From contig JBFWSA010000030.1 in NCBI GenBank assembly GCA_050248615.1, forward strand, positions 1 through 28,396: DNA of 28,396 nt, in the 5' to 3' direction. Below the pieces are notes generated by a model that had not been told where the DNA came from, searched no databases, and was given only the letters and a program-made list of their open reading frames with translations. This DNA comes from Simkaniaceae bacterium (GTDB lineage Bacteria > Chlamydiota > Chlamydiia > Chlamydiales > Simkaniaceae). A program made the position numbers and the translations under genes. Below, in pieces: positions 11,596 to 24,774 of this stretch (positions within the stretch are counted from its first letter, which is position 1; the number at the start of each line of letters is the position of its first letter).

Positions 11596-11758
11596 TATAC
11601 TCAAACAAATTCAAAAGTTTGTTTTGGGCAACGCGAAAGCTTTCGAAATTCGTCGATCATAAATGACCTCATATTTCTAATATTAGGTCATTTATGATCG
11701 TCAAATTACGGTGCTTTGGCGCAGCCGAAAATCCAACTTTTGAAGTTGTTTGAGTATA
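11596..11758 (+). mobile_element. Miniature palindromic element family A, full-length copy A1 (MITE-like, TA-flanked)
   Basis: 163 bp. Ends TATACTCAAACAA...TTGTTTGAGTATA form imperfect ~26-bp TIRs. Internal palindrome CGAAAGCTTTCG and a long hairpin CGATCATAAATGACCT...AGGTCATTTATGATCG. By hand alignment it differs from the reverse complement of 24420-24583 by 11 substitutions and 1 indel. Confidence 0.9.
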
Positions 11759-11767
11759 AGGGAGTTT

Positions 11768-13762
11768 ATGAGCAGTTGGGTCAATATTGGAAAATCGACC
11801 TTTTGTGGGTTAGGTCTTTACCAATCTTATCGGTATTCTCGCGCTTTGGCGGTTGGGTGGAAAGAGCAGCGGATGCTCTGTACAATAGATTATATCTCTA
11901 GCATCGCGATGCTCCTTCTCACCTCTGAAGACAACTTAAAGTTTTTAGGGGGAGATAAGCTCTTTTCTCAAATGAATCAGTACTACTACCTATCTCTTGC
12001 GGGCATTCCTGCTCTTCACTACCTCACGAAGAGGTGGGAAGATCACGAAGCATCCACAGTGCGGGATGTGATCCATTTTACCTATGTCCATCTTTCCGAT
12101 CTTGTGATGGTTGCATCCGCAGTCCAAGCATTAGCTGCAACCTATTATGGATTTAATCGGGCGGGGAATTTCCTCCAACTTGCTTGTATGACAGGGGCCA
12201 TCGCAGAGCAAGGGCTTTTTTGGATGAAGCCAGAAGAAGATAGGGGTTTGCTCTTTAAGATCAACGAAGGGGCCATCGTACGCGCTTATGACCCTGCAAT
12301 TCAGTCTCTCAATTTAATCGTAGGCATTCCCTTCTTTTTCCTATACCGAGGTCTTCCAGGCAAATTTAATGCCGTGATGCGCCTTATTTCTAATTACCTC
12401 CCGCAGCTTTTTTCCCGCATGATTCCCGATGGGGTTAAAGAGCAGTATCAGAGGGTGATTCAAGAGATGTCTCAGAAAGTGGGTGTTCACGTAGCGTCTA
12501 CTCCCCATGCTATCGAAGATCAGTGGATAGCAGACGACCCCCGTTTCGATCACGCTTTGATCACCGAAAAACACTTTGAGTTGTTTAAAATGGAAGATCA
12601 ATTTCCGAATCAAACGCTTCAAGAATTAGAAGAGGCACTTCAGCAAAAATTAGAGAGAGATTCAGATCCTGACCTAGAATCCATTGGAAGAGAGGGTGTA
12701 ACAAGACTGACAAAAAGAGAAATGCTTCAGGAGCTTTTTGGAAGGGAAGGAACTCCAGGATATTTACGGCAACATGTGATCACAGCCCGAACAATCGAAG
12801 AAAAAGAGGAAAAGGAAATTCAAGTCAAAAACGTCTTCGGAGCGATAGGTCAAGATTGGGCGAAACGAAAATCTCATTTGGTGATGAACTATGATAACTT
12901 TCTATGTCGAACGGCAACTGGTTCAACAATCACGGAGCTCTCTTTAGAATTTTATGGAGATATCAACAAAGCTTCTACCCTTGAGAAAAAGATCGCTCTC
13001 ATTATGCAGCAACGCCGGGATCGCAACTTTTTTGAAGTTGCTCAGGGCCTGATTATGAAGATGCAAAGAGAGGAAAGAGAAACCCGAGAGGGGTGGGAAG
13101 CAGAAGAAGCTGCCCTTTACGAACAGGGAGAGATTGCGGCCTATCTTTTGAGTTATCTGAGACATGCTGGGTATGGACTTGTCAAAGATTTGATATACTC
13201 CGTATCTACAGCCCGTCATCAAATCAATATCAATACGATTATTTATGCTCGTGATTTAAATTTAAGTTATTATGCAGAAGCCAGGCGCGATGTGAAGATG
13301 CAGCTTGCCAAGCAGCTCCAAGATATTGCCCTGCTGGATCAACTCGCCAACCTCTATTCTCCCGCTACAGGAATCTTTCTCCGGAGTGTTTATGCCAACG
13401 GAAAGAAGGAAATGGATGACACTTGGTTTGATGAGCTCATAGAGGCGATTGCCAGCTATCAAGATACCCGCATCGAATTCGATGATGTGAGTGACTATCT
13501 CAGAAAAAAGACAAATAGGCCCGAAGATTTTGATGAGGAGCTTATTGAGGTATACACCCATATCCCTACTTTTGATTCAAGGAATGCTCCTATTGAATTT
13601 GGTAAATGGGAAAGAACCCATAAAGGGGCCAATTTTGATCAGTGGTTCCAGGAAAAATGGATTGAGCCGAATCGGCAATTTGAATCGGATAAAAGAGAAT
13701 TTTTGAAAAAATACCTTCCGCAAGTCTTTTACGATCTGGGGTATGTGAGCCTTAACAAGTAA
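11768..13762 (+). CDS. Large hypothetical protein (664 aa) with N-terminal hydrophobic segments; candidate secreted or inclusion-membrane effector; paralog of 13837-17058
   Basis: Long ORF with SD AGGGAG before the ATG at 11768 (the 11750 TTG lies inside element A1). Shares YQSYRYSR.LAVGWKEQ, EQGLFW..PEEDRG, VRAYDP, FLCRTATG, YAEARRDV and KY.PQ..YD.G with the next gene. Confidence 0.85.
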   Translation: MSSWVNIGKSTFCGLGLYQSYRYSRALAVGWKEQRMLCTIDYISSIAMLLLTSEDNLKFLGGDKLFSQMNQYYYLSLAGIPALHYLTKRWEDHEASTVRDVIHFTYVHLSDLVMVASAVQALAATYYGFNRAGNFLQLACMTGAIAEQGLFWMKPEEDRGLLFKINEGAIVRAYDPAIQSLNLIVGIPFFFLYRGLPGKFNAVMRLISNYLPQLFSRMIPDGVKEQYQRVIQEMSQKVGVHVASTPHAIEDQWIADDPRFDHALITEKHFELFKMEDQFPNQTLQELEEALQQKLERDSDPDLESIGREGVTRLTKREMLQELFGREGTPGYLRQHVITARTIEEKEEKEIQVKNVFGAIGQDWAKRKSHLVMNYDNFLCRTATGSTITELSLEFYGDINKASTLEKKIALIMQQRRDRNFFEVAQGLIMKMQREERETREGWEAEEAALYEQGEIAAYLLSYLRHAGYGLVKDLIYSVSTARHQININTIIYARDLNLSYYAEARRDVKMQLAKQLQDIALLDQLANLYSPATGIFLRSVYANGKKEMDDTWFDELIEAIASYQDTRIEFDDVSDYLRKKTNRPEDFDEELIEVYTHIPTFDSRNAPIEFGKWERTHKGANFDQWFQEKWIEPNRQFESDKREFLKKYLPQVFYDLGYVSLNK

Positions 13763-13836
13763 AAATTTTAGACTTTCTTTCTATTATTCACTTCTTTAAA
13801 ATCTATGCCCAAAATTAAACAAAAAAAGGTTGTCTT

Positions 13837-23948: not shown

Positions 23949-23977
23949 ATGCTACTAGAACATTTTTTCAATGTAAA
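23949..23977 (-). promoter_or_regulatory. Putative sigma66/sigma70 promoter giving a leaderless peptidase-porin mRNA
   Basis: Minus strand reads TTTACA-17 nt-TAGCAT-6 nt-ATG(23942). No SD sequence. Confidence 0.55.
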
Positions 23978-23984
23978 GAGAAGA

Positions 23985-24392
23985 TTATTTTTTTTTTGAG
24001 GTTGAGGCTCCAGAGAGACCAAGATGTTCAATACTTCTATCTACTAATAGATCTAAAGTTTTACTGAGAGATTTTTGTTCATGAATTGCTATTTTACTTA
24101 GCAAATAATGCCTTTCAGCACTTGTTCGGTAAGCAATGTTTCCCTTGAATTTCTTTTTGTCAATAGGCTCAGGGATTGGATCGCCTTGTTTTATATAAAG
24201 CTTGATTGCAGCTTTAATAGCATCTTGAATGGATTCCATACCCTCTTCTATTGTTTCAGCATCAGTACAAACACCAGGAAGCTCATTCACTCGAATGATA
24301 TAGTAAGATTTTCTGTTATAGCTTTCTTGCTCTATTGTATAGCTCCAGTTTAAATTAAGATAATAATGTAGATTTTTTTTCCTAGTAGCCAT
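23985..24392 (-). CDS. hicB: HicB-family antitoxin with a C-terminal ribbon-helix-helix-like domain
   Basis: YYLNLNWSY, ELPGVCTDAETIEEGMESIQDA, GDPIPEP, FKGNIAYRTSAERHYLL...SLS. Confidence 0.9.
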   Translation of the reverse strand: MATRKKNLHYYLNLNWSYTIEQESYNRKSYYIIRVNELPGVCTDAETIEEGMESIQDAIKAAIKLYIKQGDPIPEPIDKKKFKGNIAYRTSAERHYLLSKIAIHEQKSLSKTLDLLVDRSIEHLGLSGASTSKKK

Positions 24393-24774
24393 GGTCTCTT
24401 AACACCTCTTTAATATCTCTATACTCAAACAACTACAAAAGTTGGATTTTCGGCTGCGCCAAAGCAACGTAATTCGTCGATCTTAAATGACCTAATATTA
24501 GAAATATGAGGTCATTTAAGATCGACGAATTCCGAAAGCTTTCGCGCTTGCCCAAAACCAATTTTTGTAGTTGTTTGAGTATAACTTGGTAGGGCAGAAG
24601 CTCCGTTCTTTTTTTAATAGAAATATTTTTTCCATAACCCTTCTTTCTAAAAACATGGTGTGAACCGCAAACTATAACTTCAAAACCCAAGTTTTTTAAT
24701 ATACGTTCCGCATCGTTATAAGAGACTGAACGGTTTTGTAGGATTTTAAGTATAAGCTTATCAATTTTCACCAT
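24382..24774 (-). pseudogene. hicA: HicA-family toxin interrupted by element A3 after codon 64
   Basis: LKNLGF, GSHHVF and PYQV motifs. Excising 24420-24583 while keeping one TA restores ...LLPYQV-RDIKEVLRDHGY* (76 aa), with its stop at 24382-24384 overlapping the hicB start. As it stands the ORF ends at a TAG inside the element (24433). Confidence 0.85.
24420..24583 (-). mobile_element. Family A element, full-length copy A3, inserted in hicA
   Basis: 164 bp including both TA. TIRs TATACTCAAACAACTACAAAA are identical at both ends. Perfect 23-bp inner stem AATTCGTCGATCTTAAATGACCT / AGGTCATTTAAGATCGACGAATT. The restored reading frame shows the TA target duplication. Confidence 0.93.

What the first reader, a model, noticed from the sequence alone, without database searches (positions are those of the whole stretch)
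11596..24583. A family of TA-targeting nested-palindrome miniature elements (family A), three copies in 13 kb, with ERIC-like ends in a chlamydia-like genome
Seen: copies at 11596-11758 (+), 24420-24583 (-) and 20338-20408 (short form) share TIRs TATACTCAAACAA.T.CAAAA. The two long copies also share an internal CGAAAGCTTTCG palindrome and a ~23-bp central hairpin, and differ by 11 substitutions and 1 indel. Known: TA duplication plus TIRs with no transposase is the pattern of bacterial MITEs attributed to IS630/Tc1-mariner enzymes (ERIC, Correia, RUP). From memory, ERIC ends (TATACCCAAAATAATTCGAGTTG...CAACTTGAAGTATGACGAGTATA) resemble these ends (TATACTCAAACAATTTCAAAAGTT...CAACTTTTGAAGTTGTTTGAGTATA), and ERIC also has a central hairpin and short deleted forms. 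Inference: this is an abundant, possibly undescribed ERIC-like family far from Enterobacterales/Vibrionales, mobilised by an enzyme encoded elsewhere.
Basis: partly seen in the sequence, partly recalled or inferred. Interest (0 to 1): 0.8.

Follow-up and report, generated by a model that had tools for sequence, protein, structure and literature searches.

The report
Mobile IS630-type hairpin MITE in chlamydiae
The three repeats belong to a family of about 100 small hairpin-shaped DNA elements in an environmental chlamydia, present at a site in some strains and absent in others, and likely moved by an IS630 transposase whose ends they share; they are a familiar kind of selfish DNA, distant cousins of ERIC repeats rather than ERIC itself.

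Summary
Family A has 102 two-ended copies in this 2.04-Mb genome: 46 long, 17 of 70-90 bp and 39 of 35-49 bp. It moved recently. Copy 24420-24583 is absent, leaving one TA, in 2 of 4 conspecific runs and in the same-genus genome. In this strain it replaces the C-terminus of hicA. An intact 1,119-bp IS630 (DD34E) in relative G022 has ends matching the TIR at 19/26 and 22/26. No such enzyme is in this assembly. It is not ERIC: the ends align only with a 2-bp gap and the interiors are unrelated. ERIC ends fit a different IS630 clade, from Vibrio and enterobacterial plasmids. G022, another genus with about 71% background identity, carries a 94% identical family, which suggests transfer. The end motif occurs in 158 of 401 phylum genomes. 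The arms mutate together and the central loop flips, as template switching would produce. The scan found these MITEs before, in this genome and in other chlamydiae. Verdict: new member of a known kind.

The parts
11596..11758 (+). Full-length family A copy (163 bp including both TA), central loop in the inverted state; lies between an MFS gene and an ORF with no Pfam match
   Evidence: no empty site found for it
11596..11621 (+). Left 26-bp TIR: outer 9 bases, variable 6-base spacer, inner 11 bases; outer and inner blocks match the IS630 left end in G022
11733..11758 (+). Right 26-bp TIR
11644..11710 (+). Central hairpin (two 32-nt arms, 3-nt loop) whose loop and outer stem occur in either orientation among copies
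20338..20408 (+). 71-bp internally deleted copy (left TIR joined to the right-hand 44-47 bases), 17 bases upstream of a secretin-family ORF; absent at the orthologous site in G001
24420..24583 (-). Full-length copy (164 bp) inserted at a TA inside hicA; absent with one TA left in runs X7 and X8 and in G001
24433..24774 (-). hicA toxin ORF of a hicAB pair, whose last 12 residues are replaced by 49 element-encoded residues
18266..18435 (.). Family B copy (170 bp, TA-bounded nested hairpin, different family); absent in 4 of 4 other runs

Best explanation
Family A is a non-autonomous DNA transposon (MITE) that inserts at TA, duplicates it and differs in presence between strains, and it is likely moved by cut-and-paste by a DD34E IS630 transposase of the clade found in relative G022. 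Inferred steps: the enzyme would bind the inner 11-14 bases of each 26-bp TIR and cut at the outer TATAC end. Because no such gene is in this assembly, it is likely unassembled, lost, or carried transiently, for example on a plasmid. The whole element can fold back, so replication would slip within it. That would copy one arm onto the other, flip the central loop, and delete the interior between short repeats to give the 70-73 bp and 35 bp forms. The family likely crossed genus borders recently.
For: Mobility (shown): a precise 162-base skip, TA..TA, at 24420-24583 in X7 and X8, 2 of 4 runs, and the same empty site in G001. A copy present in metagenome contig L072 is absent from G000, which keeps one TA. 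C11:38899 is empty in 1 of 4 runs and the 35-bp copy C11:33124 in 2 of 4. Five of the long copies have paralogous empty sites inside G000, one of them within another family A copy. No base preference beyond TA and a slight T bias at -1/-2. Enzyme: L012:952-2070 is TA-bounded and encodes an IS630 transposase (NF033545, 219.9 bits against a cut-off of 100; D170, D250, E285, DD34E). Its ends match the A TIR at 19/26 and 22/26, and no 26-mer of the reversed genome reaches 20/26. Its left end equals the G022 MITE consensus at positions 1-9 and 16-29. Right ends of relatives at 65-78% identity mostly score 20-22/26 (4 loci; one more scores 18, one damaged end 16), against 13-16/26 for IS630s near 40%. 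Arm conversion: 19 Watson-Crick double changes in the TIRs against 3.5 +- 1.9 after arm shuffling, and 19 against 2.3 +- 1.5 in the inner stem. Counted as distinct events, 19 against 4.95; rare alleles only, 8 against 0.52. Nine of the 19 distinct doubles are transversions, and G-U mismatches are not favoured on the transcribed strand (10 GU, 8 AC, 7 other). The loop is inverted in 9 of 44 classifiable copies and the outer stem in 4 of 46. The single-contig chromosome of G022 shows the same TIR doubles (23 of 23 Watson-Crick, null 6.1), so MAG assembly error does not explain them. Transfer: consensus identity 154/164 with G022 and closest copies 95.1%, against 70.6% for alignable DNA (26 hits, 31.6 of 129 kb), while same-genus G001 has no match.
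Against: G000 (96% complete) holds no relative of this transposase by tblastn or blastn. Its only IS630 match is a broken piece below the cut-off. The 6-base TIR spacer differs between element and IS, and the MITE interior does not derive from the IS (p = 0.15 and 0.99). Several close transposases have poorly matching left ends or none found (L027 12/24, L028 13/24). Many genomes rich in the end motif show no close transposase hit. The inner-stem signal is weak in G022 (0 doubles on 8 pairs; p = 0.033). No inversion was caught at one and the same locus in two strains. No transposition assay exists.
Confidence: 0.8

Rival explanations
1. The element is a TA-duplicating MITE, but the enzyme that moved it in this species is a different IS630 or Tc1-like transposase not yet seen; the L012 clade is only a relative with similar ends.
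For: No L012-type gene in G000 despite insertions that differ among near-identical strains. The spacer bases differ. At least three further TA-bounded families of similar size (B, C, C2) with other ends live in the same genome.
Against: The end match follows transposase similarity, and the intact IS sits in the genome with the youngest copies (6 identical pairs among 30 copies in G022, against 0 among 46 in G000).
Confidence: 0.13
2. The paired arm changes and fixed length are kept by selection on a folded RNA (mRNA stability or cleavage site, as proposed for ERIC in Yersinia), not by DNA-level template switching.
For: Very stable fold. ERIC is reported to affect mRNA stability (PMC2229807, passages), and bcr1 shows compensatory changes read as RNA structure (PMC3184786, passages). 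A mild orientation bias, 13 of 18 copies in tandem gene contexts (p = 0.10).
Against: Loop and stem inversions and transversion doubles cannot pass through G-U steps. No G-U excess. The distribution over gene contexts equals that of intergenic TA sites (p = 0.73). No Rfam match. No RNA run was laid, so expression is untested.
Confidence: 0.12
3. Family A is a true ERIC family member transferred to chlamydiae.
For: Termini share TATACTC and TTC..GTTG with E. coli 127-bp elements (p = 0.001-0.02 with TATA held fixed); both fold back along their length and have deleted forms.
Against: Length 163-164 bp against 127 bp, a 2-bp shift inside the TIR, unrelated interiors, no blastn match in E. coli, and a different best-fitting IS630 clade.
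Confidence: 0.04
4. The near-identity between genera reflects vertical descent with strong constraint and repeated loss, not horizontal transfer.
For: Homologues occur across many families of the order, with identity grading from 83% to 56%, so the superfamily is old.
Against: 94% identity of a non-coding element against a 71% background; absent from G001 and nearly absent from G012, the congeners of the two rich genomes.
Confidence: 0.15

Closest known systems
ERIC / IRU / MITEEc1 and MITEPlu5 (linked to 'CCC-type' IS630 elements in PMC6267812, passages and supplement passages read)
   Same: TA-bounded, whole-length foldback, non-coding, tens to hundreds of copies, strain-specific insertions, IS630-like ends beginning TATAC.
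   Different: 163-164 bp against 123-127 bp; 26-bp near-perfect TIR with two extra bases; unrelated interior; fits a chlamydial IS630 clade, whereas ERIC fits a Vibrio and enterobacterial plasmid clade about 42% identical to it.
RUP of Streptococcus pneumoniae with IS630-Spn1 (PMC2229807, passages)
   Same: MITE tied to an IS630 by end similarity and TA targets; inserts into other mobile elements.
   Different: 107 bp with a 9-bp TIR as tabulated there; sequence not compared here.
Correia / NEMIS elements of Neisseria (PMC2229807 table)
   Same: About 155 bp, TIR of about 24 bp, TA ends, long and deleted size classes.
   Different: Sequence not compared here; no sigma-70-like promoter found in copy 11596-11758.
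Rickettsia palindromic elements, RPE (PMC2229807 table)
   Same: Palindromic repeats that can sit in frame inside genes; here a 35-bp copy adds 11 codons to an alpha/beta hydrolase.
   Different: In-frame copies are rare here (my ORF calling put 3 of 102 inside ORFs, and only this one is clearly intragenic); the TA duplication is shown.

Membership tests
MITE (non-autonomous TIR element) | Terminal inverted repeats | tested here: met
   26-bp perfect TIR in the consensus of 46 copies
MITE (non-autonomous TIR element) | Short, multicopy, no transposase | tested here: met
   102 elements of 35-165 bp; the consensus has stops in all six frames
MITE (non-autonomous TIR element) | Target duplication shown at empty sites | tested here: met
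   single TA at empty sites; two further empty sites have the right net length with 1-2 flanking base differences
IS630-family MITE | TA target | tested here: met
   92 of 102 TA-bounded at both ends; empty sites as above
IS630-family MITE | Ends shared with an autonomous IS630 | tested here: met
   L012:952-2070, 19/26 and 22/26; NF033545 above cut-off; DD34E
IS630-family MITE | Cognate transposase in the same genome | tested here: inconclusive
   present in G022; not found in G000, which is 96% complete in 69 contigs
IS630-family MITE | Mobilisation in trans by that enzyme | not testable with these tools
   needs an assay
ERIC / IRU | About 127 bp | tested here: not met
   163-164 bp against 127 bp
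ERIC / IRU | Sequence similarity along the interior | tested here: not met
   p = 0.09-0.70 against shuffles; no blastn hit
ERIC / IRU | Similar TA-bounded termini | tested here: met
   gapped alignment p = 0.001-0.02; 14/24 ungapped; the E. coli copies were fetched with a pattern built to fit both, so the p-values lean optimistic
REP / REPIN (RAYT-driven) | Y1 (HUH) transposase partner, no TA duplication | tested here: not met
   no PF01797 match in G000; the TA duplication is shown
Structured ncRNA in Rfam | Match at gathering score | tested here: not met
   0 matches in the window

The most novel reading that the evidence does not exclude
Family A is one branch of a phylum-wide superfamily of about 163-bp foldback MITEs that jumps between chlamydial genera and families, probably inside shared protist hosts. 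It keeps its two ends matched by template switching, so each new TIR variant stays a transposase substrate, and it shrinks to a 35-bp hairpin that moves by itself and adds 11 codons in frame to proteins. Its IS630 partner and the Vibrio and enterobacterial IS630 clade that fits ERIC ends form a matched pair, which names a specific candidate enzyme for ERIC mobility.
Probability: 0.3. Interest if true: 0.7.

Novelty: new member of a known kind. Interest (0 to 1): 0.42.

Why it matters
IS630-driven TA MITEs are well known, so the kind is not new. The value lies in three things. First, a non-coding mobile family is active in environmental chlamydiae and edits genes strain by strain (hicA, an alpha/beta hydrolase). 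Second, there is a named, intact candidate transposase, which most bacterial MITEs lack. Third, ERIC ends and family A ends each fit their own IS630 clade, which makes the question of what moves ERIC directly testable. An ERIC-IS630 link is already in print (PMC6267812), so that part refines rather than discovers. Sharing across genera is the minority pattern: 97.4% of MITEs were genus-specific in PMC11602168 (abstract passage).

Tried and rejected
Autonomous element in G000: none. Of the long end pairs, the C22:16512-17380, C8 and C24 intervals were read and hold ordinary genes or other repeats; the longer pairs were not read. RAYT/IS200: no match. Vehicles: no family A match in 72,556 plasmid records or 50,697 phage records; 2 viral contigs had one lone end motif each, taken as chance. 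A 90% identical half transposase lies on a Protochlamydia plasmid but has no recognisable ends. 'Sister clade' idea: the tree of 21 transposases does not place the ERIC-fitting clade as sister to the L012 clade, so I claim only membership of one broader IS630 group. Interior homology between families A, B and C: not significant (p = 0.11-0.71); C and C2 are related (p = 0.002). Built-in promoter or terminator: none inside copy 11596-11758. Gene-context preference: none. In-place loop inversion at one locus: not caught, because contigs break in the hairpin. L079 shows one locus full-length in another assembly and centrally deleted by 22 bases in G000. Three metagenome loci (L077, L081, L084) join the right flank of one G000 copy to a different left flank; recombination and chimeric assembly could not be told apart. 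Paper searches that found no report of this family in chlamydiae, judged from listings: (0 papers); one search was uninformative; two searches found no paper on template switching in bacterial MITEs. PMC3184786 and PMC11602168 have no 'chlamyd' in the main text. ISfinder was not available.
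Full report
Observation. The long copies differ by 11 substitutions and one gap, and copy 11596-11758 folds back along its whole length (z = -13.4). The window is contig C30 of a 2,038,050-base, 69-contig, 42.9% GC genome, 96% complete. Named records that share the TIR are Chlamydiia or Chlamydiae MAGs. An earlier scan note calls the family Simkaniaceae; I did not check that.

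Census. Blastn gave 46 near-full copies, on average 93.6% identical to their consensus, with no two identical. A profile gave 95 loci and none in the reversed genome. Pairing ends gave 102 elements: 46 of 132-165 bp, 17 of 70-90 bp and 39 of 35-49 bp (33 exactly 35 bp), plus 39 lone ends. Ninety-two of the 102 are TA-bounded on both sides. The consensus is 164 bp: a perfect 26-bp TIR, asymmetric spacers and a central hairpin. The elements spread over gene contexts as intergenic TA sites do (p = 0.73).

Mobility. Four conspecific runs laid on the window show a clean 162-base skip, TA..TA, at 24420-24583 in X7 and X8; X4 contigs run into the element from both sides. Same-genus G001 lacks this copy and the short copy, while the site of 11596-11758 is not orthologous there. 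No empty site was found for 11596-11758. On contig C11, the 163-bp copy is absent in 1 of 4 runs and a 35-bp copy in 2 of 4, each with the right net length and 1-2 flanking base differences. Metagenome locus L072 has a copy where G000 has a single TA. Five long copies have paralogous empty sites within G000. The TA duplication and recent movement are therefore shown.

Effects on genes. Copy 24420-24583 sits inside hicA and replaces its last 12 residues with 49 element-encoded ones. The 35-bp copy at C11:33124 adds 11 codons in frame to an alpha/beta hydrolase. Whether the 35-bp form moves by itself, or is left when a long copy collapses between short repeats in the TIRs, is open.

The enzyme. 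G000 has one broken IS630 piece and no Y1 transposase. G022, a two-contig genome of another genus in the same family, holds many copies, with 6 identical pairs among the 30 full-length copies I fetched (chosen from the listed matches, not a full census). It also holds an intact 1,119-bp TA-bounded IS630 (NF033545 219.9 bits; DD34E). Its ends match the A TIR at 19/26 and 22/26, a level never reached in the reversed genome. The left end equals the G022 MITE consensus except for a 6-base spacer. Among 30 loci from 34 of 300 genomes with a related transposase, the right ends of close relatives mostly score 20-22/26 and those of distant ones 13-16/26. Against this: no such gene is found in G000, several close transposases have weak left ends, and the MITE interior is not taken from the IS. 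Binding and cutting are inferred from established IS630/Tc1-mariner chemistry (my knowledge).

ERIC. A degenerate pattern retrieved five 127-bp elements from E. coli K-12. I call them ERIC by their length (PMC2229807, passages) and by recall of their sequence. Their ends align with A only with a 2-bp gap (p = 0.001-0.02 with TATA fixed; the retrieval pattern makes this lean optimistic), and their interiors do not. The closest plasmid relatives of the G022 transposase outside chlamydiae are mostly Vibrio and enterobacterial IS630s at 41-44%. In 5 of 6 such elements the left end matches the ERIC end at 17-19/24 and A at 10-12/24; the sixth scores 13 and 13. The best chlamydial-clade right ends match A at 18-20/24 and ERIC at 11-13/24. 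The tree does not make the two clades sisters. PMC6267812 (passages and supplement passages) already links ERIC-like MITEPlu5 to 'CCC-type' IS630s. Family A works like ERIC and is not a member.

Arm symmetry. Both arms of single copies change together: 19 Watson-Crick doubles in TIRs (null 3.5) and 19 in the inner stem (null 2.3). As distinct events it is 19 against 4.95, and for rare alleles 8 against 0.52. G022 repeats this in the TIRs (23 of 23; distinct events p = 0.003) but only weakly in the inner stem. The loop is inverted in 9 of 44 classifiable G000 copies and, by my reading of the alignment, in 1 of 30 in G022. Arm homogenisation plus spacer inversion is the known signature of polymerase template switching (PMC8604942, start of abstract in a search listing). 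Shuffling arms does not remove the effect of shared descent, which is why the rare-allele count matters most. RNA-level selection is the rival: no G-U excess was seen, but expression was not tested.

Distribution. Ten of 40 relatives match the element. An end pattern designed after seeing both MITE and IS ends matches in 158 of 401 genomes of the phylum sample, with zeros for the reversed control in every row; it also counts IS ends. One family of small genomes has 0 of 30. Of 20 hand-picked regions, 14 held paired 162-176 bp elements, 56-83% identical to the A consensus, and 11 of them matched the profile nearly end to end. The G000 and G022 consensuses share 154 of 164 positions, against 70.6% for alignable DNA, and their congeners G001 and G012 have 0 and 1 end motifs. 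Transfer is the simplest reading; no formal tree test was run.

Novelty. My searches found no paper on this family in chlamydiae. ISfinder was unavailable and the supplement of the large MITE census PMC11602168 could not be read; either may list it. This scan has already noted these MITEs and their arm covariation in the same genome, and IS630 end matches in other chlamydiae. Those are unchecked AI notes and I do not count them as support. Verdict: a real, recently active IS630-type MITE, a new member of a known kind, interest 0.42.

Noticed in passing
window 18266-18435: Family B, a 170-bp TA-bounded nested hairpin (about 32 loci in the genome). This copy is absent in 4 of 4 other runs, so it is a very recent insertion.
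   Followed up: partly
L011:705-870 and L011:1152-1320 (G000:C22): Families C and C2, about 167-bp nested hairpins (43 and 17 blastn loci, overlapping sets), and an IS630 fragment, all inserted in one broken gene that I read by eye as IS30-like (not tested). Four families of nearly equal length coexist in this genome.
   Followed up: partly
L144:9125-9159 (G000:C11:33124-33158): A 35-bp copy adds 11 codons in frame to an alpha/beta hydrolase; absent in runs X8 and X6.
   Followed up: yes
G000:C8, end at 54054 (minus strand): A family A TIR joined directly to family B-like sequence, a possible hybrid end.
   Followed up: no
window 274-291: Worn lone TIR remnant just past the 3' end of the MatE gene.
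   Followed up: no
window 11750-13762 and 13837-17058: Two large paralogous ORFs (670 and 1073 aa) with no Pfam match, missing at this position in G001; the second carries many strain differences.
   Followed up: no
window 4964-7396: Fused glutamate-cysteine ligase / ATP-grasp protein (810 aa), which by my knowledge resembles bifunctional glutathione synthetase GshF.
   Followed up: no
L077, L081, L084: Metagenome loci join the right flank of one G000 copy to another left flank: rearrangement between copies or chimeric assembly.
   Followed up: partly
L087 and L169: Intact IS630 elements of the ERIC-fitting clade lie next to annotated resistance genes on enterobacterial plasmids.
   Followed up: no
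L111 against G000:C22: One 324-bp stretch is 85% identical between G022 and G000, well above background; possibly another transferred mobile piece.
   Followed up: no
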